From the NCBI GenBank assembly GCA_026016245.1, contig CP061211.1:567285-631284 (forward strand): 64,000 nt of DNA. Reading direction: 5' to 3'. Shown piece after piece: positions 1 through 43,154 of this stretch. Position 1 is the stretch's first letter, and every line of letters starts with the position of its first letter. This stretch comes from Candidatus Pacearchaeota archaeon. Its GTDB lineage: Archaea > Nanobdellota > Nanobdellia > Pacearchaeales > UBA284. A program made the translations under genes and the position numbers. Under the pieces are notes generated by a model. The model made no database searches. It was given only the letters and a program-made list of their open reading frames with translations, and was not told the DNA's origin.

Positions 1-247
1 GTTCATTAAAGTACATACAATCTCTTATGGCATCTTCACTGAATTCATCAACAATACCATTTGGGGCAACACACTCCATTATATTTCTAGCTACTGTGCT
101 TGCTTCAATATCACGCATATCATACTGCTTGGAATAGTGGGCTGTCACAACTGCAACCACCCCCCCAACAACAATAACTAATATGAGGAATTTGTGAAGC
201 CAGGTCACTGCATGTCCTGCCTGTGCTTTCTTATTTTTTATCTTCAT
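1..247 (-). CDS. Pilin-like small protein with class III signal peptide (partial, runs off the window start)
   Basis: ATG at 247 on the minus strand. N-terminus MKIKNKKAQAGHAVTWLHKFLILVIVVGGVVAVV is a basic stretch followed by a hydrophobic helix, like the neighbouring pilin-like ORFs. The frame stays open to position 1. Confidence 0.45.
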   Translation of the reverse strand, partial: MKIKNKKAQAGHAVTWLHKFLILVIVVGGVVAVVTAHYSKQYDMRDIEASTVARNIMECVAPNGIVDEFSEDAIRDCMYFNE

Positions 248-264
248 TTTTCTATTTTTTCATT

Positions 265-612
265 TTATCTTATATTTATAATCGTGAAAGCATCTTTTCT
301 TGAAAAATCCACATTATCCTTAAGATAACAATCATAGAAATAGCCTCTATCAAATTCCCCCTCTTTGACCACAACACCATTACCCTCTTTTTCTATACTT
401 ACTCTAGTATCATGCTCTATTATAATTCTTGTTCCTGGCTCAGCTGTTGATATAAGGAGACAAGTTTCTTTTGCAAGAACCTGTTTTTTCATTGCTATTC
501 CTGAAGCTTGATTACTGACCCATAAAGTGAGAATGATTATTATAGCTATGATGAAGATAAGAGTGAAGATAAATTCCCACCCAAGTTCAACACCTCTTTT
601 ATCTTTAAGCAT
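265..612 (-). CDS. Archaeal type IV pilin-like protein (class III signal peptide)
   Basis: N-terminus MLKDKRGVELGWEFIFTLIFIIAIIIILTLW: a KRG site followed by a hydrophobic helix, typical of a PibD/FlaK substrate. 115 aa. Confidence 0.55.
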   Translation of the reverse strand: MLKDKRGVELGWEFIFTLIFIIAIIIILTLWVSNQASGIAMKKQVLAKETCLLISTAEPGTRIIIEHDTRVSIEKEGNGVVVKEGEFDRGYFYDCYLKDNVDFSRKDAFTIINIR

Positions 613-633
613 TTTATCGAAAAAGTATCAGGA

Positions 634-1557
634 TTATGGAATACTCTCTATATTATTGCATACTGCACCTATTTCAGAAGCTTTCATAGGTGCAAGAATA
701 AGATGATAACAGCCTTCCCATTCTTCGTTACATTTTGAGGATACATATGAATTACCTATTATAGTTGATACTGCTTGTGTTCCTAATGCTGATCCAACAA
801 CAATAGCAACAACTATTGGATGTTTAAATGCTGTGCTGGCTACTTTTCCAATTAATCTTCCAGTAGTCCAAGGTCCAGTTGTTACCATACTTACTGCTCC
901 GAGCCCTGCTACTATTTTCAAATCATTTTTAAGAACTTCCCAATAACTTCTACCACGTATGCCCATATAAATAATTACATAATCTGAATCAGTTCTTATT
1001 TTTGGGGCCTCTATACCTACAGCAAGATCTTTATCTGCCTGGTCTGTGAAATATTCATAATAGGTTATGTTGCTAAGAGGAATCTTAGTTTGTACAAGAT
1101 AATTAAACATATCTATTTCCTTTACTTTTTCTTTAACATTATCATCGAACTTTATAGTAGTACAGATAACACAAGCTGATTTGGGGTAACCTGCTCCTGG
1201 AACAGCATAACTTTGCCAGATACTTTCACTAAAAAAATCCATTTCTCCCTCACCTAACATCCACCAACAGTCATACATCTGGTTTGCTATCTCTCTTTTG
1301 ATAAAGTTTTCATCTGTTGAGCTTATTTCTATATGCTGTGTTTTGCAATTTAATGGAATACCAGCAAGCTGTCCAGGTTGCAGGCCAGCTATCTCCTGAC
1401 TTCTTAGAATTACAGATTGATGACATGCCTCTTTATTGATTGTTTCCTCATAAGGAAAAATTTTCAGAAAATAAAAAAGTATTGCAGCAGTTATTATTAG
1501 AATCACAATACCTATAATAATGTTCTGGACTAAAGCCCCTTTTTTGTTTTTCATCAT
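634..1557 (-). CDS. Pilin-like N-terminus secreted protein (307 aa)
   Basis: N-terminus MMKNKKGALVQNIIIGIVILIITAAILFY (KKG then hydrophobic helix). The rest of the protein is unrecognised. Confidence 0.5.
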   Translation of the reverse strand: MMKNKKGALVQNIIIGIVILIITAAILFYFLKIFPYEETINKEACHQSVILRSQEIAGLQPGQLAGIPLNCKTQHIEISSTDENFIKREIANQMYDCWWMLGEGEMDFFSESIWQSYAVPGAGYPKSACVICTTIKFDDNVKEKVKEIDMFNYLVQTKIPLSNITYYEYFTDQADKDLAVGIEAPKIRTDSDYVIIYMGIRGRSYWEVLKNDLKIVAGLGAVSMVTTGPWTTGRLIGKVASTAFKHPIVVAIVVGSALGTQAVSTIIGNSYVSSKCNEEWEGCYHLILAPMKASEIGAVCNNIESIP

Positions 1558-1715
1558 CTTAATTTGTATTTTTATTTATATAAATTTTTATATTACCCCA
1601 TATCTCTTCAACAGATAAATTATCATACCTCCAATTATTGCAAAAAGTATTATTAAAAATAATATTTTGATTAGTGTTTCAACTGCCATGGCTTTCTTGT
1701 TTATTTTCTTTTTTA

Positions 1716-2810
1716 TCATATCAACTCCATTTTTGCCCTAATTTTTTCTGCATAAATACGTCCGGCAAATGTTGATGGGCATCCTGTAATTGTTAATGGT
1801 TCACAATTATTTCTTACTCCGCCAGAGCCAGTATTATATGCAGCTATCCCTAACCATTGATTTTGAAATTCAGCTATTCTTTCAGCAAGGAATCTTGTAC
1901 CAGCATCAATGTTTTTTATAGGATTAAATCTTTCATCTTCTTCTTTATTGCAATTTTCTGGATGTACTTTATTGCAAATTGATATTGAAGTTCTTTTTTC
2001 AGACATGCATGGAGAAAGCTGACTTATATCTTCTGTTCCATAGTCAGGCACAGAAAGACCGAGCAGCTTGGCTGTTTGTGGCATGATTTGCATTAGTCCC
2101 ACTTCACCATCACAACCTATTGCATCCTCAACAGATAGAGATTCCTGAATTATTATTGCTCTGATAATTTTTTCAAATTCCTCTTTGTTTGCAATATAAT
2201 TACTAAGTTGATATTGGCTGTAGTATTTTTCTACTATGCTCGCCAACTCGCTATCCCACTCCTTTGTTTTCATCTTATTATAAGCAAAATTAACATCTAC
2301 TTTTTCTTCCTCACTTAATTTTACCCCTACTACTGCAAGTTCTATCTTACTTACCTCATAATGATCTATTTGATGTGCAAGCCAGATATCCACAATTTCA
2401 ATCTTTATGTTAGCAGGCTTTTCTTCTTGTTTTAAAGGCAGTTCAATCACACGACAGAGTTTGCTTTCACATTTTTTCTTACAAACACAAAGAACATTTT
2501 TTTGGAATAATGTTGTAGGTTTTTGGAAATTCTCATTAATATTGTGTTGCTCATCAAAAGCAACTACATACCAGCCTTTAGGAGCTAAAAGAGTGTATCT
2601 TGCTACTTCAGCTTCTTCAAGGCTGTTTAGTTCTTGTATTAAACTATCTAGTGTTCCTTGTGCCTGCATTTCATCCTGTTTACCAAAATATGTTCTGAAA
2701 AGGATAGTGCTAGCATATAGGAGAATAAGGATAACAGCAATTGCAACTATTATTTCAATTATTTGTTTAAGCAAAAGCAAACCTCTTTTGTTCATAAAAG
2801 AAACATACAA
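1716..2810 (-). CDS. Pilin-like N-terminus fused to a lytic transglycosylase (SLT) domain
   Basis: N-terminus MNKRGLLLLKQIIEIIVAIAVILILL is a class III-like signal. The C-terminal part carries SLT family motifs: IIQESLSVEDAIGCDGEVGLMQIMPQTAKLLGL (the ES...GLMQIMP.TA box) and AAYNTGSGGV (the AYNAG box). Confidence 0.7.
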   Translation of the reverse strand: MYVSFMNKRGLLLLKQIIEIIVAIAVILILLYASTILFRTYFGKQDEMQAQGTLDSLIQELNSLEEAEVARYTLLAPKGWYVVAFDEQHNINENFQKPTTLFQKNVLCVCKKKCESKLCRVIELPLKQEEKPANIKIEIVDIWLAHQIDHYEVSKIELAVVGVKLSEEEKVDVNFAYNKMKTKEWDSELASIVEKYYSQYQLSNYIANKEEFEKIIRAIIIQESLSVEDAIGCDGEVGLMQIMPQTAKLLGLSVPDYGTEDISQLSPCMSEKRTSISICNKVHPENCNKEEDERFNPIKNIDAGTRFLAERIAEFQNQWLGIAAYNTGSGGVRNNCEPLTITGCPSTFAGRIYAEKIRAKMELI

Positions 2811-2842
2811 AGATATTATTTAAAATTTCTTGTTATTATTAC

Positions 2843-3021
2843 TACTGAACTTGTGTTGCGTTCCAAAGACCGAGAGCATTTTTAAGTTTTGCCATCAAAT
2901 CAGACATGAACTGCCTCATTGCTCCAGAGAAAATGAGGACAATAACAACAAGAACAATAATAGCAAGAATTATAATCACAATAGTATTGATTGAGAGTCC
3001 TACAGCCTTCTTGTTGCGCAT
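2843..3021 (-). CDS. Small pilin-like protein (59 aa, absent from the ORF track)
   Basis: Translation MRNKKAVGLSINTIVIIILAIIVLVVIVLIFSGAMRQF... The N-terminus is almost identical in pattern to the downstream ORF (KKAVELNVNTIIIVILAIL). Confidence 0.5.
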
Positions 3022-3026
3022 TTTGC

Positions 3027-3401
3027 TTACTTGCTTCTTATAGTTTCACACATGTCTGAAGTAAATCCTGCCCCTAGACATTCTTCCTCATCCAATGCTT
3101 TGATAAGATTGTTATCACAGTAGACTGGTAGGGTTCCTATAACTTCTCCATCTGACATTTCTCTTATTGTAAATTCATGTGTGCAAAAACTGGTTTTGTC
3201 TCCAGCGCTGCAATATAGAGTGCATGCATTCCTAGTCTGTTCTATGTCTGTTTGTGAATAGGCCCCAGGGATTGGTATGATCTTTTGCCAAAGTTGTTGT
3301 ATTCCTCCAGTAAAGTAAAGTGCAAGAATAACTAGAACAAGAATTGCAAGAATTACTATAATTATTGTATTAACGTTTAACTCAACAGCTTTCTTATTCA
3401 T
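3027..3401 (-). CDS. Archaeal type IV pilin-like protein
   Basis: N-terminus MNKKAVELNVNTIIIVILAILVLVILALYF (KKA then hydrophobic helix). 124 aa with several Cys in the C-terminal half. Confidence 0.55.
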   Translation of the reverse strand: MNKKAVELNVNTIIIVILAILVLVILALYFTGGIQQLWQKIIPIPGAYSQTDIEQTRNACTLYCSAGDKTSFCTHEFTIREMSDGEVIGTLPVYCDNNLIKALDEEECLGAGFTSDMCETIRSK

Positions 3402-3456
3402 TTTTTACCTCTTTTTATTTTTTTATTAAGTATGACTTGTTTTTAAAATTTTCTTT

Positions 3457-4047
3457 TTATTCAGCACATCTCTCAAGCTGAATTATGGGTGGTTTTTCAT
3501 AGCTTATCACAAAATAAAGCCCATCTTGTTTTTTGTAAAAGAAAGGACTTATAACATTAATTTCTTCACTCCACCATAAAGCACCTTTTTTTGACCCCTC
3601 TTGTTTAAACAATGGTGGCTCTTTACTGAAGTCAACAACTTTTTTTATTCTGTAAGGAACTTCTTGTTTTGTTTCGTAAAATATTGCAGAAATCTTCAGA
3701 TCACTTAGAGTAGTGCTTTTATAATCCTTATTTCCGTGAGTTAGTGTGATTTCTACAGCGCGCCCAGGTAATTCAGTAAAAACAAGGTTTGAATTCTGAA
3801 CAAAACTTGCTGGAAAATTAGGCAGGCCGTCACATACGCAATCATTATTCTGCAAAGAAAGACATTTGTCTATATTGCTGATAAGGACATCAAAATTATC
3901 TTCATTCTGCTGTTGCTGTTCTATGTTAAGCTTCCCCCCTCTTATTGCCGCATAGAGAGGATTGAAAAAACCAAGAAGTATAAGCACGACAACAGCTATT
4001 ACTATTACAGCGATTGAAGCTCTAATAATCTCCCATATTCCCATCAT
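3457..4047 (-). CDS. Pilin-like or secreted protein (196 aa)
   Basis: N-terminal hydrophobic helix MMGIWEIIRASIAVIVIAVVVLILLGFF. It lies inside the run of pilin-like genes. Confidence 0.4.
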   Translation of the reverse strand: MMGIWEIIRASIAVIVIAVVVLILLGFFNPLYAAIRGGKLNIEQQQQNEDNFDVLISNIDKCLSLQNNDCVCDGLPNFPASFVQNSNLVFTELPGRAVEITLTHGNKDYKSTTLSDLKISAIFYETKQEVPYRIKKVVDFSKEPPLFKQEGSKKGALWWSEEINVISPFFYKKQDGLYFVISYEKPPIIQLERCAE

Positions 4048-4055
4048 TTTTATTT

Positions 4056-4211
4056 CTACCTACCAAATCTCAAAAAAGCTTTGAGTTCTTCTAAAATATT
4101 TACCCCTCGTTTTTGTAAAACAAATATAAAGATTATGACAAGAGCAAGAACAACTAGTCCAATAACCCACCAGTTTATCTCGCTCCAGACCAAACCTCTT
4201 TTGTTTTTCAT
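4056..4211 (-). CDS. Small pilin-like protein (51 aa, absent from the ORF track)
   Basis: Translation MKNKRGLVWSEINWWVIGLVVLALVIIFIFVLQKRG... The KRG then hydrophobic helix matches a class III signal. Confidence 0.45.
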   Translation of the reverse strand: MKNKRGLVWSEINWWVIGLVVLALVIIFIFVLQKRGVNILEELKAFLRFGR

Positions 4212-4257
4212 CTAAACAAAAAGTTTTTTAACTTTAAAAATTTAATCTGAGTGAGGC

Positions 4258-5022
4258 TTGGGAAAGATGAACAGGTTATTGGCTATTTTTTTATCTTTAT
4301 CTACTGCTATTTCTCCAATTGCTCTAGCACAAGAATATCAGGGAATGAAGCTGGAACAAAGAATAAAGGATTTTAATGAGGTCATCAGAAGAAGGAATTT
4401 CTCAAATTATGATGTGCCTATAATTCATCTTCAAGTAGTTGATAAGGATTCTAAATGGCCTTTGGAAGATGCAAGAGTTGAATTAAAACATGAGGATAAG
4501 AGGATAACAGATGGTTATCCTGTCCCTGGAGATTATATGTATTATAATCCTTATAGATCCAAAACTGATGAAGAAGGAAATGTTATTTTTAGCGTGACTC
4601 CATGTCATGAAGAGGAAATAACAAGATTAGAAGTAAAGTGCCAAGGTTATTATCCAATTGATGTAGATTTTCCCTTGCTTAATCTTTTAGCACATATTAA
4701 TAACACTTTAAGTAACCCACTTCCAGACTCAATTGAGCAGAAGCTGGAATTTGAGTATGATTGGAATAATGCTACTGTTTTCCGTGTGTTTTATGAAAAC
4801 GCAAATGAATTTATAGAGAAGGTTTTGGGTGATGATATAGCAAGATATGATAGAGAGGCTAATAATATTTTTGGAAATAATTTTTATTCTTGGTATGTAA
4901 ATAGTCTTTTAGGAAAAAAACTTCCAACACCCCTAATGCCTCCAATAAAAGAGTTTCATATTCTTATTCCTGGCATAGTTGAAATGGAAAAAGTGCCAGA
5001 AAAGATAAAGATAGAGTATTAG
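4258..5022 (+). CDS. Secreted hypothetical protein
   Basis: Sec-type signal peptide MGKMNRLLAIFLSLSTAISPIALAQE. No recognisable domain. Confidence 0.45.
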   Translation: MGKMNRLLAIFLSLSTAISPIALAQEYQGMKLEQRIKDFNEVIRRRNFSNYDVPIIHLQVVDKDSKWPLEDARVELKHEDKRITDGYPVPGDYMYYNPYRSKTDEEGNVIFSVTPCHEEEITRLEVKCQGYYPIDVDFPLLNLLAHINNTLSNPLPDSIEQKLEFEYDWNNATVFRVFYENANEFIEKVLGDDIARYDREANNIFGNNFYSWYVNSLLGKKLPTPLMPPIKEFHILIPGIVEMEKVPEKIKIEY

Positions 5023-5031
5023 AAAGATAAA

Positions 5032-7206
5032 TCAGACCATGATTCCACCTACTGCTATTGTTGCGAGAGCAGCCAGAGCAATTATTGCAATGAATGCTGC
5101 TATTGTATAAAGTGTCATTCCTGTCAACAACATTTTTGCTTTTTCTGCTTTCTCTCCTAATCTATCTTCCCCTGATTCAATTGTAACAAGAGTTCCTGTT
5201 AAGATGAAAATTATCTCAATTATGTAAATACCAACAATGATTTGAAGCCAGTATGGTGGAATCATTTTAACAACATTAAACATAGTTGTTATTGTTCCTA
5301 CTGTTCCAAAACCAGCAAGAGTTTGTTCTCCGCTTAGTGCGCCCATCTGTAACATAGATTCAAGCCTTCCTAATATCATTGTAATCATTGCTGCTAATCC
5401 TACAACTATTGCAGCTAAAAGTGGAGCAAGAAAAGTCATATTACTTTTCATTCCAGTTGTAACATCAGCTAATAAATCTTTTAATCTTTCATTTACTTTG
5501 TGAATATTCTTGACATACTCACTTATAGCCATTAGTGCTCTGGCTGCAACACCAAGCCCTTTTTTCAAGCTCTCTATGAGAATTCTCATACTTGTTTTTA
5601 TCAGCTCAGATGGATAGTAATTGATAGCTCCTCTGCCTTTTCCAAACACAGCACGTTCAACAGACATTCCTGCTTGTCGTATATTCATGTTGACCATTGA
5701 GAAAAAGCCAGCTGTTGGTGTTCCTTTAAGGGAACTAGCAACTCTACCAAAAGCCATTTCAGCAGGAATTCCATCAGCAAGTCTATTGCCTAATTGAAAG
5801 ACACTTGAAGCAAACTCTTTTTCAAGTTTTTTTGTTTCTTTTCTAGTTCCAATCAATTTTCGTGTTTTTAGTTTGTATGCCATTATAAAGAAAATGGCTA
5901 TAGCTAGCGGGATAAATAAACTTAGAAGCAGAGCAAAAGGACCAAAAGGACCAACAGTTGTATTAGTTTCTGGATCAACTTTAAAGTCAAATATATTTTG
6001 ATTTCCTAAAAAACCCATTCCTAATTGATCAAAAGTATAATCAGCTGGAATATTTAGAACATCAGCTAATCCATATTGCATTAACAAAGGCAAAAGTCCT
6101 ATTAAGAGGAAGGGTAAAGCAATAAGAGCAGCGGTTGCATATGGCTTGTTTGATTTATAAAAGTGATAATTGGGGTTTTTCTCAAGTAGTTCTGTTTCAC
6201 CAAAACCACCAGGCCTTTTGGATAAAACACTGTTGGTCATGTAAAAGACAACAAATGGAACAAGAATATTGTAAAGCAGGGCAACATGATACCATTGTAT
6301 GGCTCCTTGTAATAATGTTGAAGCTAAAGGCAATAAAGCAAGACCAAGAGTTGGTAAGACAATGCCTAACATATAGACATTTGTTAGAGGGCTTTTAACA
6401 TCATGAGTGTAATGCAACATTTTTTCATAAACACCATCAAGAATAACTTCGAGAGCTTTTTCCAAGGTTTTTAATCTTCTTGCTTCTACTGGCTCATAAA
6501 GAGAAGATTCTATGAGATGGAAGGATTCTATAAATTCAAGATTATGCTCTCGCCAAGTCTCGAAATATGCATCCAAGGCATCTTTTATAGTGCTGTATTT
6601 TCCTGTCTCGACATTCCAGAAAATCTTTTTTAGGTCAAGAGAAAGAGGCGGCTGTAAGTGTCGGGATGCAAAATGGATTGCTCTTTCCAGGTTTGAGGAG
6701 TGTTTCATATAAACCACAATATAGAGAATGCATGGGACCATTTGGGAAGAGGCTTTTAGACACCATTTTTGTTCTAATCTACCAGGCAAGCCATTCAAGT
6801 AGTAGAAAAGGAAAAATGATATAAATAAGAGCAGGAGAAAAATTAAGAAAGGAAAAGTGTCTGTGAGTAAAAATACTGCTAATGAGATTAAGGTGGCAAG
6901 AATTATTATAATTATTAGTGAAAATACTGCCAAGCCAGCAGCCTCGCCTGGTTCAATGTCAAGATGTGCTCTTTCTATTGCCTTTCTTGTTTTCTCCTCG
7001 TCTTTTTTTGAAAGTTTTAACTTGATGATTCGGCCTATATTTTTGCAGGCACGCTCATAAGTGTTAAGAGGTGCGAGAGTTTCTCTTCTGAATTTTTTAT
7101 ATTCGTGAGAATAATCTGTAGGAGCTTCAGCAACCTCTGTCCTAAGTTCTCTTTCTATCTTAGCCTCAAACTCTTTTAGAAACTCCCTACCCTCTTTTCT
7201 TACCAT
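5032..7206 (-). CDS. Polytopic membrane protein, possibly a FlaJ/TadC-like (T2SS-F domain) pilus assembly platform
   Basis: 724 aa with many transmembrane helices and two soluble helical segments (...EMAFGRVASSLKGTPTAGFFSMVNMNIRQAGMSVERAV...) that resemble T2SF/TadC cytoplasmic domains. It sits next to the pilin-like cluster. No ATPase partner lies within the window. Confidence 0.4.
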   Translation of the reverse strand: MVRKEGREFLKEFEAKIERELRTEVAEAPTDYSHEYKKFRRETLAPLNTYERACKNIGRIIKLKLSKKDEEKTRKAIERAHLDIEPGEAAGLAVFSLIIIIILATLISLAVFLLTDTFPFLIFLLLLFISFFLFYYLNGLPGRLEQKWCLKASSQMVPCILYIVVYMKHSSNLERAIHFASRHLQPPLSLDLKKIFWNVETGKYSTIKDALDAYFETWREHNLEFIESFHLIESSLYEPVEARRLKTLEKALEVILDGVYEKMLHYTHDVKSPLTNVYMLGIVLPTLGLALLPLASTLLQGAIQWYHVALLYNILVPFVVFYMTNSVLSKRPGGFGETELLEKNPNYHFYKSNKPYATAALIALPFLLIGLLPLLMQYGLADVLNIPADYTFDQLGMGFLGNQNIFDFKVDPETNTTVGPFGPFALLLSLFIPLAIAIFFIMAYKLKTRKLIGTRKETKKLEKEFASSVFQLGNRLADGIPAEMAFGRVASSLKGTPTAGFFSMVNMNIRQAGMSVERAVFGKGRGAINYYPSELIKTSMRILIESLKKGLGVAARALMAISEYVKNIHKVNERLKDLLADVTTGMKSNMTFLAPLLAAIVVGLAAMITMILGRLESMLQMGALSGEQTLAGFGTVGTITTMFNVVKMIPPYWLQIIVGIYIIEIIFILTGTLVTIESGEDRLGEKAEKAKMLLTGMTLYTIAAFIAIIALAALATIAVGGIMV

Positions 7207-7343
7207 TATTCTTTTTACCTCTTTTTTCTTTCAACAACAAACAAGGAAAAAGATTATAAAAAGATTTCCAAAATATACAAAAAATATTTAAAGTAGAATA
7301 ATTTTTAACAATTAACTAAATAGTAAAAAATAAATTACAAAAG

Positions 7344-7637
7344 ATGGTATTGAAAATTCTAAGGGTAAGCGATGTGGTTGGGATGAAGATTTTTACTGAT
7401 TCTGGAGACTATCTAGGTATGGTAGAAGAAGCAAATGTTGTAGGTAATAAAGTAGATAGTTGGAGAGTAAAAATAGCTCGTGACAGTAATTTATCTGCAC
7501 TTCTTTCTGGTGCTCGTGGTTTGATAATCCCTCACCAATATGTTAAAGCAATAAGTGAAGTTTTGATAATAAGTAGAAGTGCTATTCCAGTAAGAGAAGA
7601 GATGAAAGAAGCTGGAGAGGCAACTTTATTAGAATAA
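7344..7637 (+). CDS. PRC-barrel domain protein
   Basis: SDVVGMKIFTDSGDYLGMVEEANV is the PRC barrel signature. 97 aa. Confidence 0.55.
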   Translation: MVLKILRVSDVVGMKIFTDSGDYLGMVEEANVVGNKVDSWRVKIARDSNLSALLSGARGLIIPHQYVKAISEVLIISRSAIPVREEMKEAGEATLLE

Positions 7638-7660
7638 ACCTAAGAACCTAAATTTTTAAG

Positions 7661-8152
7661 ATGGTTGCAGAAACTATTGGTATATTTGCACATCCTTTTT
7701 TCACTAATATTATTCTACCCTTTCTTCTTGTTTTTGTAGTTATTTATGCTATTTTAGAGAAGACTACTGTATTGGGCAAGGATAAGAGATATGCTAATCT
7801 TATTGTTGCTTTTGTTATAGGTTTTATGTTTATTGGTGCTCAGGCTTTGGTTGGCTTTACTATCAAACTCCTTCCATTAATTGCAGTCATGATAATAATC
7901 TTACTAGGTTATTTTTTGGTTTTTGGCTTTATTGGAATAGAAAAAAGTAAAGGTATGCAAATTGCTCTAGGAATATTATTTGGTATAGCTATCTTGGCAG
8001 CAGTATTCTGGGCAGCTGGAGTATTTGAGATGATAACACCATCTACATGGAGTCCTGATACAATAGCTATAATTGTTTTCCTTGTCATTTTTGGAGGAGC
8101 CATAGCCTTAGTGCTTGCAACTGCTCCAAAACCAAAACCAAAATCAACATAA
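7661..8152 (+). CDS. Small membrane protein, paralog 1 of 3
   Basis: 4-5 transmembrane helices. Shares the N-terminal pattern ...LLVFVVIYAILEKTTVLGKDKRYANLIVAFVIGF with the next two ORFs. Confidence 0.45.
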   Translation: MVAETIGIFAHPFFTNIILPFLLVFVVIYAILEKTTVLGKDKRYANLIVAFVIGFMFIGAQALVGFTIKLLPLIAVMIIILLGYFLVFGFIGIEKSKGMQIALGILFGIAILAAVFWAAGVFEMITPSTWSPDTIAIIVFLVIFGGAIALVLATAPKPKPKST

Positions 8153-8223
8153 ATATCAACGTAATTAAAAAGAAAAGTATATAAAACATAATCTTTTTAA
8201 TAAAATAGACAAAAGAGGATAAA

Positions 8224-8757
8224 ATGGTTGATGGATACGGTGGATGGTATGCGTGGACAGATCTTTATGGGATTATCCAGCAGTGGGAAGCATTTGGTGT
8301 ATTCACTATATTATTTCCTTTAGTTTTAGTATTTGCAGTTGTTTTTGCAATACTAGAAAAAGTAGATCTGTTCAAAAATAGAGGGGTTCATTTGCTTATA
8401 GCCCTGATTATAGGTTTCTTCACTGTGAGCAATCCTTATGTTGGTGGTTTTTTTATGTATTTCTTCTCAAATCTTGGAATAGGTGTGGCAATAATGCTTG
8501 CCTTAATTGTTTTGTTGGGAATAGCTTTAAAACCTGGAGAACAAGCATGGAAAGTTATTTTTGGAATTGTTGGAGGAGCAGTATTTTTAGTTATTCTAGC
8601 TAGGAGCGGAACATTCAAATGGATTTTTGGAGAGAATTTCTGGTACTGGATTCAGGCAAATAGTGCTTTGGTGGTTGTGGCTATAGTTGTCATTTTAATG
8701 ATAGTTGCTGTAATGACTGGAGTTAAAAAAGCACAAGTTAAAGGAAAAATAATCTAA
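8224..8757 (+). CDS. Small membrane protein, paralog 2 of 3
   Basis: ...LVLVFAVVFAILEKVDLFKNRGVHLLIALIIGFF is the same architecture as 7661-8152. Confidence 0.45.
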   Translation: MVDGYGGWYAWTDLYGIIQQWEAFGVFTILFPLVLVFAVVFAILEKVDLFKNRGVHLLIALIIGFFTVSNPYVGGFFMYFFSNLGIGVAIMLALIVLLGIALKPGEQAWKVIFGIVGGAVFLVILARSGTFKWIFGENFWYWIQANSALVVVAIVVILMIVAVMTGVKKAQVKGKII

Positions 8758-8778
8758 AGTAAAAGAGTAAAAAGTAAA

Positions 8779-9258
8779 ATGGTTGTGTTAGATTTAAGCG
8801 GAATGTCAACTTTCATCCCTGTATTTGGTTTTCTTCTTGTTTTTGTAGTTGTTTATGCATTATTAGGAAAGACAAAAGTTTTAGGAGACAATAGGTTTGT
8901 CCATATTCTTACTTCTTTTGCAATTGCTATAATCTTTCTTGTTTCAGCAAATGCAGTAGAATATGTTAGAGTTGTAACCCCTTGGTTTGCTGCCTTTGTT
9001 GTTTCTCTATTATTTATTGTTCTTGTCGTAAGTCTAATTAAAGGCGATATAGATAAGTTCTTTAAACCTGGTTTTGGATGGTTAATTGTCATAATTCTTA
9101 TAGCAGTGTTTGTATTCTCAGCAGTCTATGTTTTTGCTGATATCATAAATAAGTACATGGCTGGTCCAAAAGCTTTCTTGCTTCAGCCTACTGTGATTGG
9201 AATTATCGTGCTTATAGGAATCACAATACTTGCTTCTTGGCTTTTAACAAGAAAATAA
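8779..9258 (+). CDS. Small membrane protein, paralog 3 of 3
   Basis: ...LLVFVVVYALLGKTKVLGDNRFVHILTSFAIAIIFL is the same family as the two upstream ORFs. Confidence 0.45.
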   Translation: MVVLDLSGMSTFIPVFGFLLVFVVVYALLGKTKVLGDNRFVHILTSFAIAIIFLVSANAVEYVRVVTPWFAAFVVSLLFIVLVVSLIKGDIDKFFKPGFGWLIVIILIAVFVFSAVYVFADIINKYMAGPKAFLLQPTVIGIIVLIGITILASWLLTRK

Positions 9259-9277: not shown

Positions 9278-10645
9278 TTAAAACATCTTTCTGCCGAATT
9301 TCTTTGCCAGCTTTTGTAATGTCTTCTTATCAATCTGTCCTGTACCAAGGCCTTTCATTGCCTTGCTACTAGAAATAAATTCCTTCACAATTTTGTATTG
9401 CTTAATCATCTCTCTAATATCAGAAGTAGAAACACTGCTTCCTTTAGATATTCTTGCGATCCTGTTTGAATTTAATTTTTCAGGATTTTCCCTTTCTTCT
9501 TGTGTCATACTATCGATTGCAAATCTCCACTTCTTGAGCTTAGCTTCTTGAACATCAAACAAGTCAGGAACTTTTGCTTTAACTCCTCCAAGTCCAGGAA
9601 TCATATCTGCTATCTTTCCAAGCGGACCCATTGACTGCATTGCTTTGATTTGGTCATACAAATCAGTCAAAGTGAATTTTCCTTCCTCAATCCTTGTTTT
9701 AATTTTTTCCTTCTCTTTGTCTTCAACAGCAAGCTTTGCCTTTTCTAGTAAAGCTTTCAAATCACCCATTCCAAGTAATCTGGAAACAAAAGAACTTGGA
9801 TCAAAAATCTCTATATCTTGTAGTTTTTCTCCTGTTCCTATAAATACAACCTTGGCGTTAGTTTCAGAACAACTTGCTAATGCCCCACCACCTTTTGCTG
9901 TTCCATCCATTCTTGTTACAATAACACTATCAATTTTTCCAGCTTTATTGAATCCTTGAGCTTGGATTGAAGCAGATTTGCCAATATCAGCAGGCATAAC
10001 AAGAAAAACCAAATCAGGTTTAATTTCTCTATATAAAGCTTTTAATTCATTAATAAGAGCACTACTTAAAACATCTCTTCCTGCTGTGTCAATAATAACA
10101 AGATTATATTTGCTTAGCTTTTTTTCAAATTTTTTCCAGATCCTTCCAGATTGTTTGTCTTCCTTGTCAACAAAAGAAGGCAGCTTTGCTTTTAGAGCAA
10201 GCTGTTCAAGCTGTTCAGGAGCTGCAGGACGATGCACATCCAAACCTACTAAAGCTGTTTTAAATCCCCTCTTGCTATAATAAAAACCTAGCTTGGCTGC
10301 AGTAGTTGTTTTACCACAGCCATATAAACCTAATAACATGATTTTGAATGGCTTTTTCTTCTTATCCAACTTCACTTCATATTCTTCCTTACCAAGAATT
10401 TCAATAAGTTCATCATGAATCAATTTAATTAGCTGTTCTTTCTTCTCAAGACCAGCAACCTTTTCACTAGCTTTTTTCCTTATCTTTTCAATCAAGGAGA
10501 AAACAATTTTTGTATCAACATCTGCCTCAAGCAAGCTATATCTCAAATCCTTAATAATTTCTTCAGTAATCTTCTTGTCTACAAAAACAGCTCCAGCTAA
10601 TTTGGACATTGTTTTTTTCAGCACATTACCAAGTTTGTCTAGCAT
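9278..10645 (-). CDS. srp54: Signal recognition particle protein SRP54
   Basis: SRP54 N-domain, then G-domain motifs LLGLYGCGKTTTAAKLG and DTAGR, then a Met-rich C-terminal M-domain. 455 aa. Confidence 0.9.
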   Translation of the reverse strand: MLDKLGNVLKKTMSKLAGAVFVDKKITEEIIKDLRYSLLEADVDTKIVFSLIEKIRKKASEKVAGLEKKEQLIKLIHDELIEILGKEEYEVKLDKKKKPFKIMLLGLYGCGKTTTAAKLGFYYSKRGFKTALVGLDVHRPAAPEQLEQLALKAKLPSFVDKEDKQSGRIWKKFEKKLSKYNLVIIDTAGRDVLSSALINELKALYREIKPDLVFLVMPADIGKSASIQAQGFNKAGKIDSVIVTRMDGTAKGGGALASCSETNAKVVFIGTGEKLQDIEIFDPSSFVSRLLGMGDLKALLEKAKLAVEDKEKEKIKTRIEEGKFTLTDLYDQIKAMQSMGPLGKIADMIPGLGGVKAKVPDLFDVQEAKLKKWRFAIDSMTQEERENPEKLNSNRIARISKGSSVSTSDIREMIKQYKIVKEFISSSKAMKGLGTGQIDKKTLQKLAKKFGRKMF

Positions 10646-20947: not shown

Positions 20948-21070
20948 GCCTCAGTAGCTCAGTTGGTAGAGCGGCGGTCTTGTAATAAAGAACCCAGGTT
21001 CTTTAAATTCCTAAAGAACAAGGGAAAACAAGAAAACCGTAGGTCGGGGGTTCGGATCCCCCCTGAGGCT
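20948..21070 (+). tRNA. tRNA-Thr(UGU) with an intron of about 50 nt after position 38
   Basis: Acceptor GCCTCAG/CTGAGGC, D arm GCTC-AGTTGGTA-GAGC, anticodon stem GCGGT/ACCGT with loop CTTGTAA, T arm GGGGG-TTCGGAT-CCCCC. About 50 nt are inserted 3' of the anticodon loop. Confidence 0.8.
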
Positions 21071-37511: not shown

Positions 37512-37620
37512 AGCCCGGTAGTGTAGTGGTCAAATTCTCTAAATAAAAATTTTATTTATAGAAGACTAAGCATCCAAGGCTTTGGACCTTGAGACCCAGG
37601 TTCGAATCCTGGCCGGGCTA
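37512..37620 (+). tRNA. tRNA-Gln(UUG) with a predicted non-canonical intron of about 36 nt in the D-loop
   Basis: Acceptor AGCCCGG/CCGGGCT, D stem GTGT..GCAT, anticodon stem CAAGG/CCTTG with loop CTTTGGA, T arm CCAGG-TTCGAAT-CCTGG. About 36 nt (ATTCTCTAAATAAAAATTTTATTTATAGAAGACTAA) are inserted between the D-loop AGTGGTCAA and the 3' D-stem strand. Confidence 0.7.
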
Positions 37621-41601: not shown

Positions 41602-42264
41602 ATGGATGAAAAAGAAATAGAAAAATTAAGAAAAAAAATTTTAGAACAGGTAGAAAGGCTACCAGAAGAGCAAGCCTCCTCTTTGAGAGAACAGATTAAG
41701 AGCGCAAGTCCTCAAGAGCTGGAGAATTTTTTAAAACAACAAATGGTTCGAGGAGATGAGGGCGAGTGTTTTTTCTGCCAGCTTGTTTCTGGTAAAGTTG
41801 AAACAGTGAGGATATATGAGGATGCTGATATTTTATGTATTCTAGATATCTATCCTGCAAATCCTGGACATATGATTGTTATACCAAAAAAACATTTTCA
41901 GTTTATGCATGAAATCCCTGATGCTCTTCTGAAAAAGATATTTATTTTTATTAAAACAATAGAGCCTATACTCCTTGATACTACTAAAGCACATGGTTTA
42001 AGCATTTATATTGCCCAAGGACAGGGAGCTGGTCAGAAAGTAAAACATTTTTCTGTAAATCTTATTCCTAGATTTGAAGGTGATAATATTAATTTTGAAT
42101 GGCAAAGAAAAAAAGTTTCTAAAGATGAATTAGAAAAGCTTGGTAAAAAGATAAGGGAAAAAAGCGAGGGAATTGTAAGGGGGGAGCAGGAAAAAAAGGA
42201 GAAAGAAAAAGAATTGGAAGAGGCTGAAAAGATGATGAAGCATGTTAAGGAAAGAGTGCCTTAG
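41602..42264 (+). CDS. HIT-family-like hydrolase with a Glu/Lys-rich tail
   Basis: GECFFCQLVSGKVETVRIYEDADILCILDIYPANPGHMIVIPKKH is the HIT N-terminal core. The histidine triad looks degenerate (VKHFSVNL). Confidence 0.5.
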   Translation: MDEKEIEKLRKKILEQVERLPEEQASSLREQIKSASPQELENFLKQQMVRGDEGECFFCQLVSGKVETVRIYEDADILCILDIYPANPGHMIVIPKKHFQFMHEIPDALLKKIFIFIKTIEPILLDTTKAHGLSIYIAQGQGAGQKVKHFSVNLIPRFEGDNINFEWQRKKVSKDELEKLGKKIREKSEGIVRGEQEKKEKEKELEEAEKMMKHVKERVP

Positions 42265-43154
42265 ATTCCAAACAAGTAATGTATTATTATAAATAATAAA
42301 TCACCCACAAACAGGCTGCATATTAAAGCTATGAGGAAGACTGGTACAAAAGGCAGGCCGTATTTGATTGTAATTTTCTTTTTTGATTTTCTAAGCAGCT
42401 GAATGTCTTTCTTACTTAAACCATGAATGCTTGGCTTGATCATTTTATTCTTTATTTTTACAGATTCAATTATCCAGTCTCCTTCACTGAGCTTGCTTGC
42501 TGGAACTTTTCTGATCATTGCTGAATTTTCTGCAGCTTTGATGAAAGAGTAAAGTAAGGGCAGGATTAAGAATACTATAAATGGAATGAAAAACCAGCTT
42601 TTATCAAATAAACTTAATGTTAAGGCGATGGCAGCTATAAGCCAGGAGATAGTTCTGAAAAATCTTATTCTTTTGAATGTTTTTTGGAATTCCATGCCAA
42701 ATGTTTTATTTCTAATTGCTGAGAAGATACTGAAGAAAAGTCCATAAATAGAACCTATGAAAAATATGTTAATTAGGAAAATGAGAAGAAAAGGCTCATT
42801 GAATGATCCTAGTGAATAAACCTGAAAATGTGATGCAAAAATTGGTTGTGTTGCAAAAACCACAGAAAGGGCCATCAAAAGTTTGGCATCCCCTCCCCCA
42901 AATATTCTAGTATAATAGAAGAGATGCGCTAAAAGGTAAAAGATTGCAAATGCAGCTAGGGCATACCAAAAATATGGGGCTTGTTTTTCCATAATTGCTG
43001 CAAGGGCCCTTACTGCAAATGCTATAAAAATTAAACTAAAACTTAGCCAGTTTGGCACCTCCCTCTTTCTTAAATCAGTTACAGAGGCTGTGATTAGCCA
43101 TAAAAAGGCGATAGATACTAACAAAATATCAGAAATGAAAATTATATCTGCCAT
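42261..43154 (-). CDS. Prepilin/preflagellin peptidase (A24 family, PibD/FlaK-like)
   Basis: First catalytic Asp box ASVTDLRKREVPNWL. Second GGGDAKLLMALS. N-terminal polytopic helices. An extended C-terminal domain is present. Confidence 0.8.
   Translation of the reverse strand: MADIIFISDILLVSIAFLWLITASVTDLRKREVPNWLSFSLIFIAFAVRALAAIMEKQAPYFWYALAAFAIFYLLAHLFYYTRIFGGGDAKLLMALSVVFATQPIFASHFQVYSLGSFNEPFLLIFLINIFFIGSIYGLFFSIFSAIRNKTFGMEFQKTFKRIRFFRTISWLIAAIALTLSLFDKSWFFIPFIVFLILPLLYSFIKAAENSAMIRKVPASKLSEGDWIIESVKIKNKMIKPSIHGLSKKDIQLLRKSKKKITIKYGLPFVPVFLIALICSLFVGDLLFIIIHYLFGI

What the first reader, a model, noticed from the sequence alone, without database searches (positions are those of the whole stretch)
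1..4211. Tandem array of seven or more small class-III-signal (pilin-like) genes, two missing from the ORF track
Consecutive minus-strand ORFs at 1-247 (partial), 265-612, 634-1557, 1716-2810, 2843-3021, 3027-3401, 3457-4047 and 4056-4211 all start with a short basic motif (KRG, KKG or KKA) followed directly by a hydrophobic helix of about 20 residues. Two of them (59 and 51 aa) fall under the ORF-track threshold and are near-duplicates in pattern (KKAVGLSINT versus KKAVELNVNT). A 724-aa polytopic protein with T2SS-F-like soluble segments is adjacent at 5032-7206, and an A24 prepilin peptidase (TDLRKREVPNWL, GGGDAKLL) is at 42261-43154. Together these make a type-IV-pilus-like surface filament system with a diversified set of minor and major pilins.
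Basis: partly seen in the sequence, partly recalled or inferred. Interest (0 to 1): 0.65.

Follow-up and report, generated by a model that had tools for sequence, protein, structure and literature searches.

The report
Archaeal pilus operon with wall-cutting pilin
A tiny symbiotic archaeon (Pacearchaeota) carries a conserved 11-gene operon for a type-IV-pilus-like filament in which one pilin-like subunit is fused to an enzyme that cuts bacterial cell walls, hinting that these archaea use the filament to attack or attach to bacteria.

Summary
The array is real. The 196-aa ORF (3457-4047) lacks the motif here and in all seven orthologous loci read.

The window is from a Candidatus Pacearchaeota MAG. 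On the source contig the array runs to 11 genes. A T2SSE ATPase lies about 5 kb past the last array gene, about 6 kb beyond window position 1.

Gene order is conserved across DPANN genomes. In 38 of 80 species-level loci the ATPase lies within 1.5 kb of the homologue of the 724-aa protein.

That protein has no sequence match to T2SSF. Its model does contain a domain with the GspF/PilC cytoplasmic fold. The A24 peptidase has both catalytic Asp motifs.

The main addition concerns gene 5 (1716-2795). Its model shows a 56-residue N-terminal helix and a β-sheet, followed by an SLT lytic transglycosylase. Relatives keep the pilin module but carry glucosaminidase, amidase, M15/VanY peptidase or 3D domains, or no enzyme.

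Best reading: a type-IV-filament machine that presents exchangeable peptidoglycan hydrolases, probably against bacteria. It is a new variant of a known kind. No filament, cleavage or enzyme activity was tested.

The parts
4056..4211 (-). Array gene 1. A 51-aa class-III-signal protein (MKNKRG|LVWSE...) with a conserved C-terminus, FLRFGR.
   Evidence: Orthologues of 51-58 aa with the motif and the FLRFG[RG] end were read in L003, L004, L006, L007 and L009. Homologues were found in most of the 80 surveyed loci.
3457..4047 (-). Array gene 2. A 196-aa protein with an uncleaved-type N-terminal anchor (MMGIWEIIRASIAVIV...). It has no class III motif and is an accessory membrane protein rather than a pilin.
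   Evidence: The motif is absent in all seven orthologous loci read.
3027..3401 (-). Array gene 3. A 124-aa pilin-like protein and the candidate major subunit. The helix TIIIVILAILVLVILALYFTGG is nearly invariant, there are five invariant Cys, and this is the only gene in the array with a strong AAGAGGT ribosome-binding site after a 55-nt spacer.
   Evidence: The family has 41 members, all unnamed or named 'hypothetical protein', none with a Pfam domain. Every member whose source names an organism is from Pacearchaeota.
2842..3021 (-). Array gene 4. A 59-aa pilin-like protein of Flp-like size, an N-terminal paralogue of gene 3, with a conserved C-terminal GLWNA[TS] sequon.
   Evidence: 44% identity to gene 3, E 1e-4. 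Flp1_like 20.1 bits, below the cutoff of 33.5..
1716..2795 (-). Array gene 5. A 359-aa modular pilin. Its parts are a class III signal (MNKRG|LLLLKQIIE), a pilin module (helix 3-58 and β-strands 64-149, with four conserved Cys) and an SLT/GH23 lytic transglycosylase (about residues 160-359; motifs ES, GLMQ, AYNTG).
   Evidence: Pfam SLT 2.3e-22. Alignment. AlphaFold2 model, pLDDT 81. PDB profile hit to Slt70, 1.5e-10. Foldseek hits to MltD, Slt70 and MltE. Domain swapping in relatives.
1588..1719 (-). Array gene 6. Its class III motif is not conserved across loci.
   Evidence: The motif is present in the window, L007, L008 and L009. It is absent in L003, L004 and L006, where a stop codon lies directly upstream.
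634..1557 (-). Array gene 7. A 307-aa pilin-like protein (MMKNKKG|ALVQNIIIG...) with a second hydrophobic region near the C-terminus and a conserved end, C-x-N-I-E-S-I-P.
   Evidence: It is the array family detected in the largest number of the 80 loci.
265..612 (-). Array gene 8. A 115-aa pilin-like protein (MLKDKRG|VELGWEF...).
1..247 (-). Array gene 9, 5' part only (MKIKNKKA|QAGHAVTWL...). It is 151 aa on the source contig. Genes 10 (138 aa) and 11 (266 aa) follow outside the window, then RPA, RadA, and the T2SSE ATPase at L001:16553-18844.
5032..7206 (-). A 724-aa polytopic membrane protein, the probable assembly platform. It belongs to a DPANN-specific family with no sequence-level T2SSF match.
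   Evidence: More than 4000 homologues, no Pfam domain, and some JGI names of 'TadB'. Model pLDDT 79. Foldseek domain hits to OutF, EpsF and PilC: probability 0.97-1.0, target-normalised TM 0.68-0.74. The ATPase lies within 1.5 kb in 38 of 80 loci.
4258..5022 (+). An oppositely oriented 254-aa (251 aa from the ATG) secreted protein with an ordinary Sec-type signal (…SPIALA|QE). It sits between the platform gene and the array. It is a variable passenger, absent in L009, and membership in the system is uncertain.
42261..43154 (-). A 297-aa class III signal (prepilin) peptidase of family A24, with both catalytic aspartates.
   Evidence: Pfam Peptidase_A24 5e-17, with a weak Arc_PepC hit. Motifs VTD27LRKREVP and FGGGDAKLL. 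The same HIT-gene/A24 pairing occurs in L008.

Best explanation
The locus encodes an archaeal type-IV-filament (pilus-like) machine of a DPANN-specific kind.

Inferred steps:
1. Nine or ten small proteins are inserted into the membrane with their basic 4-9-residue leader on the cytoplasmic side.
2. The A24 aspartic peptidase (42261-43154) removes the leader after the G/A.
3. The freed hydrophobic helices are assembled into a filament by the 763-aa T2SSE ATPase, encoded about 6 kb beyond window position 1, acting through the 724-aa polytopic platform (5032-7206).

Proposed roles:
- Gene 3 (124 aa) is the most likely major subunit, with its truncated paralogue gene 4.
- The other positionally conserved families (genes 1, 5, 7-11) act as minor or priming/tip subunits.
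- Gene 5 is a modular pilin. A canonical helix-plus-β-sheet pilin module carries an SLT lytic transglycosylase. In related genomes the same module carries a glucosaminidase, a MurNAc-L-Ala amidase, an M15/VanY peptidase or a 3D domain, or no enzyme.
- The filament therefore most likely presents a peptidoglycan-cutting enzyme on or at the end of the fibre. This would let a wall-less, host-dependent archaeon bind and locally open the sacculus of a bacterial partner or prey.

Shown here:
- the sequence motifs and their conservation;
- the domain content;
- the predicted fold of gene 5;
- the gene neighbourhoods.

Inferred only:
- leader cleavage;
- polymerisation;
- which subunit is major;
- tip location of gene 5;
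- peptidoglycan as the substrate, and a bacterium as the target.
For: Signal geometry
- G and A interchange at -1 between orthologues.
- In the gene-5 family, 119 of 167 N-termini read K[KR][GA] or RRG.
- The criteria come from PMC4371748.

Machinery
- A24 peptidase with both catalytic Asp.
- T2SSE ATPase on the same contig.
- The platform candidate has a domain with the GspF/PilC cytoplasmic fold.
- It lies within 1.5 kb of the ATPase in 38 of 80 species-level loci, and next to at least four array-family ORFs in 59 of 80.

Operon structure
- Spacers are -4 to 55 nt.
- The gene order is the same in six further loci whose proteins are about 40-70% identical to the window's.

Gene 5
- AlphaFold2 model at pLDDT 81: helix 3-58, then eight β-strands, then the SLT domain.
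- SLT catalytic motifs are invariant.
- Slt70 is the best PDB relative, 1.5e-10.
- The N-terminal module has 449 representatives at 50% clustering.
- The 87 hits of 200 residues or more among the best 150 carry SLT (18), Glucosaminidase (7), 3D (4), Amidase_2 (2), M15/VanY (2) and Lysozyme_like (1).
- The amidase and M15 variants occupy the same slot in equivalent arrays.

Other peptidoglycan-directed genes
- A 2562-aa ORF in the same window carries Peptidase_M23.
- Large SLT proteins are already reported for Pacearchaeota and Woesearchaeota (PMC8204110).
Against: - None of the pilin-like proteins matches a Pfam, NCBIfam or PDB pilin family above threshold.
- The platform has no sequence similarity to T2SSF and no detectable internal repeat.
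- In this genome the ATPase and the peptidase are not adjacent to the array.
- Only 7 of the 57 gene-5 homologues in the 80-locus survey carry a recognised hydrolase. 35 are the pilin module alone and 15 have unidentified extensions. The enzyme is therefore a clade-specific add-on, not part of the core function.
- GH23 also includes a chitinase, so the SLT domain alone does not prove peptidoglycan is the substrate.
- Several mature N-termini carry charged residues or a 9-13-residue spacer before the hydrophobic core (genes 9 and 10), unlike textbook pilins.
- There are no expression, proteomic or imaging data.
Confidence: 0.7

Rival explanations
1. A bindosome-like or pseudopilus surface display system rather than a long pilus. 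The class III signals and the ATPase/platform pair serve to extract these proteins and anchor them in a short cell-surface assembly. This would parallel the Sulfolobus sugar-binding proteins and bacterial T2SS pseudopili. The hydrolase would then work at the archaeal surface at the contact site, not on an extended fibre.
For: - Many subunit families occur in similar numbers, and no major pilin is proven. The locus has nine to ten different pilin-like families and only one candidate major subunit.
- Archaeal type-IV-filament machineries that present functional proteins carrying class III signals are known (preprint 10.64898/2026.04.22.720090; PMC3047682 abstract).
- Gene 2 and gene 6 are conserved membrane proteins without a conserved motif, so they look like accessory base components.
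Against: - Gene 3 has the extreme helix conservation and the strong ribosome-binding site expected of a polymerising major subunit.
- The gene-5 model has a full-length 56-residue α1 helix, as in filament-forming pilins.
- Nothing in the sequence distinguishes a short filament from a long one.
Confidence: 0.18
2. A DNA-uptake (competence-like) or DNA-exchange filament. The array is functionally tied to the RPA-like and RadA genes that follow it. The pilus would capture or import DNA, with the hydrolase helping to reach it. This would resemble bacterial Com pili or the Sulfolobus Ups pili.
For: - RPA-like and RadA genes directly follow the array in the source contig and in 34 of the 80 surveyed loci.
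- A PDDEXK nuclease follows them in L001 and L006.
- Ups pili serve DNA exchange and repair (PMC11823120 abstract).
Against: - These genomes are highly syntenic overall. SRP54, PRC-barrel and other housekeeping genes are equally conserved neighbours, so adjacency alone is weak evidence.
- No DNA-binding pilin, ComEC-like or Ced-like channel was seen in the window or in L001.
Confidence: 0.08
3. These are ordinary Sec signal peptides or signal anchors. The ORFs would be unrelated small secreted or membrane proteins whose basic N-terminus plus hydrophobic stretch only mimics a class III signal, and the clustering would be incidental.
For: - No pilin family hit is above threshold.
- Gene 2, and gene 6 in some loci, are indeed plain anchors.
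- FlaFind and SignalP could not be run.
Against: - G or A sits at -1 in nearly every orthologue read, with G/A exchange, and K/R at -2 in all but one (KLG for gene 1 in L004), across nine families.
- The hydrophobic stretches are helix-length, 19-32 residues, and no A-x-A site follows them. The true Sec signal of the neighbouring 254-aa protein (…SPIALA|QE) looks different.
- The array is linked to the ATPase and platform across DPANN genomes.
- The gene-5 model has a pilin fold.
Confidence: 0.03

Closest known systems
Archaeal type IV pilus / type-IV-filament loci, for example the 11-gene Epd pilus cluster of Methanococcus maripaludis (TFF system 1) and the clades catalogued by Makarova et al. 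2016
   Same: - A secretion ATPase, a polytopic platform and an A24 class III signal peptidase.
- An operon of one major and several (five or more) minor pilin-like genes with [KR][GA] processing sites (PMC4858521; PMC4371748; preprint 10.64898/2026.04.22.720090).
   Different: - None of the nine pilin-like families, nor the platform, matches a described family by sequence.
- There is one 724-aa platform gene, not two.
- The peptidase is a 297-aa protein, not the much larger EppA type.
- Gln at +1 occurs only in genes 9 and 10.
- One subunit carries a peptidoglycan hydrolase. Neither census mentions such subunits.
Modular type IV pilins of bacteria (PilB and PilC of Streptococcus sanguinis; Raynaud et al. 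2021)
   Same: A small N-terminal pilin module is joined to a grafted functional module. The grafted module varies between relatives, and the arrangement predicts presentation on the filament, probably at its tip (PMC8179133; model; domain survey).
   Different: - The signal here is the archaeal class III type, not the IPR012902 N-methylation motif.
- The grafted modules are cell-wall hydrolases rather than adhesin or lectin modules. A text search of that paper found no occurrence of peptidoglycan, hydrolase or transglycosylase, although it does mention one peptidase-type module (IPR030392).
Large extracellular SLT-domain proteins of Pacearchaeota and Woesearchaeota (Castelle et al. 2021; Vigneron et al. 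2022)
   Same: The same lineages, the same GH23/SLT catalytic domain, and the same inference that the target is bacterial murein (PMC8204110; PMC9723730).
   Different: - Those are proteins of up to about 3000 aa, and the papers report no link to pili.
- This is a 359-aa protein with a class III signal and a pilin module, sitting at a fixed slot in a pilin operon, with the catalytic domain exchanged among at least five hydrolase families.
Machine-associated and virion-associated peptidoglycan hydrolases. These include specialised lytic transglycosylases of bacterial T4SS/T3SS/pilus systems, and phage T7 gp16 and tape-measure lysins.
   Same: An SLT-type domain is attached to a structure that has to cross a sacculus. 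The profile of the gene-5 family hits T7 gp16 and a phage tape-measure protein in the PDB, and EtgA appears weakly in Foldseek.
   Different: In bacteria the enzyme opens the producer's own wall so the machine can assemble (my own knowledge). Archaea are not known to make murein, so here the wall must belong to another cell, as with phage lysins.
Sulfolobus bindosome (class III signal on sugar-binding proteins)
   Same: Functional, non-structural proteins carry class III signals and depend on a type-IV-filament-like ATPase/platform pair (PMC3047682 abstract).
   Different: The cargo there is a set of substrate-binding proteins for ABC transporters. It is not a cell-wall hydrolase, and it is not encoded inside a multi-pilin operon.

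Membership tests
Archaeal type IV filament (T4P-like) system | Subunits carry a class III signal: a charged residue at -2, G/A/S at -1, and a processing site that precedes a hydrophobic domain of about 20 residues. | tested here: met
   Met by genes 1, 3, 4, 5, 7, 8 and 9 in the window and by genes 10 and 11 on L001. Conserved in orthologues with G/A exchange. Not met by gene 2. Variable for gene 6. This was a rule-based check only; FlaFind and SignalP were not available.
Archaeal type IV filament (T4P-like) system | A class III signal peptidase (A24 aspartic protease) with two catalytic Asp, the second in a GxGD motif. | tested here: met
   ORF 42261-43154: Pfam Peptidase_A24 5e-17, above the cutoff. 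D27 lies in VTDLRK and the second Asp in GGGDAKLL.
Archaeal type IV filament (T4P-like) system | A secretion ATPase of the T2SSE/VirB11 superfamily encoded with the system. | tested here: met
   Not in the window. It is on the same contig at L001:16553-18844 (763 aa, T2SSE 40.4 bits against a cutoff of 24.9, Walker A GTRSSGKTS). It lies within 1.5 kb of the platform homologue in 38 of 80 loci.
Archaeal type IV filament (T4P-like) system | A polytopic platform protein of the GspF/PilC/TadC/FlaJ (T2SSF) family. | tested here: inconclusive
   By sequence, not met. There is no Pfam T2SSF hit for the protein or for 29 relatives at E<=10, no PDB profile hit and no internal repeat. By fold and context, supportive. 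Foldseek matches one domain to OutF 5nbg, EpsF 2vmb and PilC 2whn (probability 0.97-1.0, target-normalised TM 0.68-0.74). Some JGI entries name it 'TadB'. ATPase adjacency is conserved.
Archaeal type IV filament (T4P-like) system | Subunits are cleaved and polymerise into a filament. | not testable with these tools
   Needs N-terminal mass spectrometry, cryo-ET or filament proteomics.
Bacterial type IV pilins / pseudopilins (N-methylation motif, G|F/M-x-x-x-E) | A Pfam/NCBIfam prepilin N-terminal cleavage/methylation domain, Phe or Met at +1, and Glu at +5. | tested here: not met
   The only hit is a sub-threshold NCBIfam match for the 59-aa ORF (18 bits against a cutoff of 86). Residue +1 is L, V, A, Q or G. 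Glu at +5 occurs only in gene 1.
Flp/Tad pilins | An Flp-family domain and an associated TadB/TadC pair. | tested here: not met
   The 59-aa ORF scores 20.1 bits against Flp1_like, below the cutoff of 33.5. There is no T2SSF hit for the platform. Only its size (mature length about 54 aa) resembles Flp.
SLT / GH23 lytic transglycosylases (domain of gene 5) | An SLT domain above the curated threshold, with the catalytic Glu-Ser and the GLMQ and AYNxG motifs. | tested here: met
   Pfam SLT 79.2 bits against a cutoff of 21.3. E218-S219, G230/G233 (of GLMQ) and Y320 (of AYN) are invariant in all 17 aligned relatives, including one glucosaminidase variant. Slt70 is the best PDB hit at 1.5e-10. Foldseek hits MltD, Slt70 and MltE at probability about 1.0. 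Enzyme activity and substrate were not tested.
Modular pilins (pilin module plus grafted functional module) | An N-terminal pilin fold (a long α1 helix packed on a β-sheet) linked to a separable, exchangeable functional domain. | tested here: met
   AlphaFold2 model: helix 3-58, strands 64-149 (pLDDT about 90), then the SLT domain at 162-358. The same module occurs alone (about 150-180 aa) or fused to SLT, Glucosaminidase, 3D, Amidase_2 or M15/VanY. The model is a prediction. No structural match of the pilin module to a solved pilin was obtained.
Epd pilus / TFF system 1 | Two platform genes, a dedicated large EppA-type peptidase, and Gln at +1 of the subunits. | tested here: not met
   There is a single 724-aa platform gene. 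The peptidase is a 297-aa protein. Gln at +1 occurs only in genes 9 and 10 of this genome. KKGQ does appear in gene 3 of the distant locus L008, and in gene 1 of L007.

The most novel reading that the evidence does not exclude
Gene 5 is a tip pilin that works as an exchangeable 'warhead'. The DPANN filament would carry a peptidoglycan hydrolase to the surface of a bacterial cell and breach its wall. The bond specificity (glycan, amide or peptide) would be swapped between lineages as in phage lysins. That would be direct molecular evidence that many Pacearchaeota and Woesearchaeota live on bacteria rather than on archaea. It might also be coupled to uptake of host DNA or nucleotides, given the conserved RPA/RadA neighbours.
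Probability: 0.3. Interest if true: 0.8.

Novelty: new variant of a known kind. Interest (0 to 1): 0.6.

Why it matters
Pacearchaeota and Woesearchaeota are abundant, uncultivated, host-dependent archaea whose hosts are unknown. Known DPANN hosts are archaea.

A pilus operon is present in at least 597 species-level genomes. Its fifth subunit repeatedly acquired different peptidoglycan-specific hydrolases.

This gives a concrete, testable mechanism for physical interaction with bacteria. It also supplies marker genes for finding the partners.

It extends the 'modular pilin' idea to archaea and to enzymatic, wall-degrading cargo. Finally, it defines about ten unannotated protein families and a platform family with no Pfam domain or sequence-level match to known platform families, all of which current type-IV-filament censuses would miss.

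Tried and rejected
- Sequence-level identification of the 724-aa protein as T2SSF failed. Pfam on the protein and on 29 relatives at E<=10, NCBIfam and a profile against PDB sequences gave nothing relevant. The weak DUF2207_C and VIT1 hits, and one NCBI 'VIT1/CCC1' name, look spurious.
- hhalign of its N- and C-halves found no internal repeat. The alignment diversity was low (Neff 1.9).
- A profile of the gene-3 family against PDB gave only noise.
- Foldseek of the gene-5 model was dominated by the SLT domain and returned no pilin match.
- The sigma-70 promoter and terminator scan is not applicable to an archaeon and was not above shuffles.
- I first counted 12 array genes. Recounting against the gene calls gives 11.
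- I considered gene 6 a pilin, then downgraded it because three loci lack the motif and have a stop codon directly upstream.
- I considered gene 2 a pilin with a degenerate signal, then rejected that because no orthologue has the motif.
- I considered whether inverted arrays that keep RPA/RadA attached show functional linkage. I rejected this, because those loci are explained by inversion of the platform gene alone.
- Searches of the paper library found no paper describing Pacearchaeota pilin clusters, and the two archaeal T4P/TFF censuses do not mention peptidoglycan-hydrolase pilins.

Full report
**Source and setting**

The window is archaeal.
- Two of its five tRNAs carry introns and were found only by Rfam (20948-21070 and 37512-37620).
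- It encodes TFIIB, a tRNA-splicing endonuclease, SRP54 and FtsY.
- GC content is about 33%.
- The 724-aa protein is 100% identical to a protein of a Candidatus Pacearchaeota MAG, on a 710-kb contig.

The window is therefore from a DPANN archaeon.

**The observation**

Seven of them begin with a 4-7-residue basic leader ending in K[KR][G/A]. An uncharged stretch of 19-32 residues follows.

Three corrections are needed.
- The 196-aa ORF (3457-4047) starts MMGIWEIIRA and has no such motif. Neither do its orthologues in seven other loci.
- The near-duplicate N-termini belong to the 59-aa and 124-aa ORFs (44% identity, E 1e-4), not to the two short ORFs.
- A further 43-aa ORF (1588-1719, NKKA|MAVETLIK) was missed. 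Its motif is present in only four of seven loci.

The gene-5 start is the ATG at 2795, as in all orthologues.

A mechanical scan of the 240 ORFs of at least 40 aa in the window gave 11 positives, seven of them in the first 4.2 kb.

Conservation is stronger evidence than that count. Every ORF, including the 51-, 59- and 43-aa ones, has a positional orthologue in other genomes.

**Extent of the array**

The source contig (L001) shows that the array continues past window position 1.
- The partial ORF is 151 aa.
- It is followed by a 138-aa gene (NKKA|QAGE) and a 266-aa gene (NKKA|GVF).

That makes 11 tightly packed, co-directional genes, with spacers of -4 to 55 nt.
- Nine have a conserved class III-type start (genes 1, 3, 4, 5, 7-11).
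- One never has it (gene 2).
- One has it variably (gene 6).

An RPA-like gene, RadA and a PDDEXK nuclease come next, then two coiled-coil genes. A 763-aa T2SSE ATPase with a Walker A motif follows.

**The machinery**

The A24 peptidase at 42261-43154 is confirmed.
- Pfam gives 5e-17.
- Both catalytic aspartates are present (VTD27LRK and GGGD).

The 724-aa protein is harder to place.
- It belongs to a family of more than 4000 proteins. Wherever a source names an organism, it is a DPANN lineage or simply 'archaeon'. No member has a Pfam domain.
- It gives no T2SSF signal by Pfam in 29 members at E<=10, nor by a PDB profile.
- Its two halves show no detectable similarity.
- Its AlphaFold2 model (pLDDT 79, pTM 0.76) has no global match to a solved structure. 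One domain does match the cytoplasmic domains of OutF, EpsF and PilC, with probability 0.97-1.0, target-normalised TM 0.68-0.74 and rmsd about 2.9 Å.

Genomic context adds independent support.
- A scan of one genome per species found relatives in at least 597 genomes. The 80 loci kept are labelled Pacearchaeota, Woesearchaeota, Nanoarchaeota/Nanoarchaeia or simply 'archaeon'.
- In those 80 loci the T2SSE ATPase lies within 1.5 kb of this gene in 38. In 31 of them it is directly upstream and co-directional.
- At least four array-family ORFs lie within 9 kb in 59 of the 80.

The commonest arrangement, and by inference the ancestral one, is ATPase, platform, array, RPA, RadA. In the window's clade the ATPase sits on the far side of RadA. 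An ATPase/platform pair followed by pilin genes is the hallmark of archaeal type IV pilus loci (PMC4858521).

I therefore accept the protein as the platform on fold and context. I record family membership by sequence as not shown.

**Are these class III signals?**

Published criteria require G/A/S at -1, a charged residue at -2 for archaeal peptidases, and a processing site that precedes the hydrophobic domain (PMC4371748).
- All nine families meet these criteria.
- At -1, G and A interchange between orthologues. K/R stays at -2 in all but one orthologue read (KLG for gene 1 in L004). This pattern is not expected for a mere signal anchor.
- The neighbouring 254-aa protein offers an internal contrast. 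It has an ordinary Sec signal with an A-x-A site after a short hydrophobic region.

FlaFind and SignalP could not be run.

**Gene 5**

ORF 1716-2795 carries an SLT domain (Pfam 2.3e-22).
- The E-S, GLMQ and AYNxG motifs are invariant.
- Slt70 is its best solved relative (1.5e-10). Phage T7 gp16 and a tape-measure lysin are also hit.

Its model (pLDDT 81) has three parts:
- a 56-residue N-terminal helix;
- an eight-stranded β region at pLDDT about 90, holding four conserved cysteines;
- the helical SLT domain.

This is the lollipop architecture of a type IV pilin with an enzyme grafted on.

A search with the first 200 residues against 1.84 billion cluster representatives gave 449 hits. Their lengths are bimodal: about 150-180 aa, or 280-400 aa.

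Of the 87 hits of 200 residues or more among the best 150:
- 18 carry SLT;
- 7 carry Glucosaminidase;
- 4 carry a 3D domain;
- 2 carry Amidase_2 (3e-32);
- 2 carry Peptidase_M15/VanY;
- 1 carries Lysozyme_like;
- the rest have no Pfam domain.

One search confirmed these assignments on cluster representatives.

The variants occupy the same slot in equivalent arrays.
- The glucosaminidase variant P0138 is in L002 and L003.
- The amidase variant P0249 is in L007.
- The M15 variant P0224 is in L008.
- In L009 the slot holds a 157-aa module with no enzyme.

In the 80-genome survey, 57 loci have a gene-5 homologue:
- 35 are the module alone;
- 7 carry a recognised hydrolase;
- 15 carry unidentified extensions.

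The core component is thus a minor pilin that repeatedly acquired cell-wall hydrolases of different bond specificity. The amidase and D-Ala-D-Ala-type peptidase domains act on bonds specific to murein. That argues the substrate is bacterial peptidoglycan rather than chitin, even though GH23 includes a chitinase.

**Other subunits**

Gene 3 (124 aa) has an almost invariant helix across 20 relatives of 41-100% identity, and five invariant Cys.
- It is the only array gene preceded by a strong AAGAGGT site and a long AT-rich spacer.
- I propose it as the major subunit. This is an inference.

Gene 4 is its truncated paralogue. It has a conserved C-terminal N-x-S/T sequon and is absent from the more distant loci L007 and L008.

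Gene 1 ends in a conserved FLRFGR. Gene 7 ends in C-x-N-I-E-S-I-P.

None of these families has any annotation or domain.

**Mechanism and rivals**

The best-supported reading is a type-IV-filament machine whose filament or surface assembly presents a peptidoglycan hydrolase to a bacterial cell.

Three observations fit this.
- Large SLT proteins are already reported in these lineages and interpreted as acting on bacterial walls (PMC8204110, PMC9723730).
- Archaeal peptidoglycan hydrolases have been shown experimentally to kill bacteria (PMC12352652).
- A 2562-aa ORF with a Peptidase_M23 domain lies in this same window.

The rivals are:
- a short bindosome- or pseudopilus-like display structure, which sequence cannot distinguish from a long pilus;
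- a DNA-uptake role, suggested by the RPA/RadA neighbours, though these genomes are syntenic throughout;
- ordinary Sec signals, which the evidence above makes unlikely.

**Comparison and novelty**

The locus works like an archaeal type IV pilus system and like bacterial modular pilins (PMC8179133). It fails the sequence-based membership tests for bacterial pilins, Flp pilins, T2SSF and the Epd system.

Two archaeal T4P/TFF censuses contain no mention of peptidoglycan or transglycosylase. My library searches found no paper describing pilin clusters in Pacearchaeota.

I rate it a new variant of a known kind. The pilin array itself is an expected kind of feature. The conserved 11-gene architecture and the exchangeable hydrolase-bearing pilin are the new parts.

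All functional statements remain predictions. Nothing about cleavage, polymerisation, enzyme activity or target organism was tested.

Noticed in passing
window 22815-24683 and 24680-32368 (+): A 2562-aa ORF carries a Peptidase_M23 (lysostaphin-type peptidoglycan endopeptidase) domain at residues 1870-1991 and has a Sec-type signal. The 622-aa ORF just upstream overlaps it by 4 nt, has no Pfam hit, and begins MQHKKA|QVTIFIIIAVLIVAVALF. That is another class-III-like N-terminus outside the array. Together they may be a second peptidoglycan-directed surface system.
   Followed up: partly
L001:12164-15017, and 34 of the 80 loci L010-L089: An RPA-like OB-fold gene and RadA directly follow the last array gene in most loci with enough downstream sequence. 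A PDDEXK nuclease follows them in L001 and L006. This could be general synteny, or a hint of a link between the filament and DNA uptake or recombination.
   Followed up: partly
window 7344-9258 (+): A PRC-barrel protein (97 aa) is followed by three similar-sized small polytopic membrane proteins (163, 177 and 159 aa) with no Pfam family, possibly paralogues. They lie divergently next to the platform gene, and the same four genes are found there in L002-L004 and L009. Function unknown.
   Followed up: no
L029, L036, L041, L044, L047, L051, L059, L062, L075, L081; and L001, L004, L006: Two rearrangements of the core locus were seen. In about ten species only the platform gene is inverted relative to the ATPase and the array. 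In the window's clade the ATPase, together with a 240-aa membrane protein, lies beyond RadA rather than upstream of the platform.
   Followed up: partly
window 20948-21070 and 37512-37620 (+); 35796-36419 (+): Two tRNA genes of 123 and 109 nt, presumably intron-containing, are found by Rfam but missed by ARAGORN. A tRNA-splicing endonuclease gene lies between them.
   Followed up: no
window 53564-54427 (-): A 287-aa ORF has a Por_Secre_tail (bacterial T9SS C-terminal sorting) domain (1.1e-7), which is unexpected in an archaeon. It lies next to a 2189-aa NosD/β-helix giant ORF (46994-53563). Another β-helix ORF runs off the window end (62757-64000).
   Followed up: no
window 9278-10645 (-) and 13495-14544 (-): SRP54 and an FtsY-type SRP receptor both lie within 10 kb of the array, with a MacB/FtsX-ABC transporter pair between them. 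SRP54 keeps this position in L003, L004 and L009. Bacterial prepilins are SRP-dependent (PMC4371748), but this is probably coincidental synteny.
   Followed up: no
P0047: One close homologue of the 724-aa platform candidate is named 'VIT1/CCC1 transporter family protein' at NCBI. Only 3 of 29 relatives give a weak VIT1 hit (best 2.8e-4), so this looks like an over-annotation.
   Followed up: partly
window 1-8000: GC skew is negative over 1-6000 and positive from about 6000 onward. The change roughly tracks the shift from mostly minus-strand to mostly plus-strand genes near 7.2-7.3 kb. I did not examine whether this marks a replication origin or terminus.
   Followed up: no
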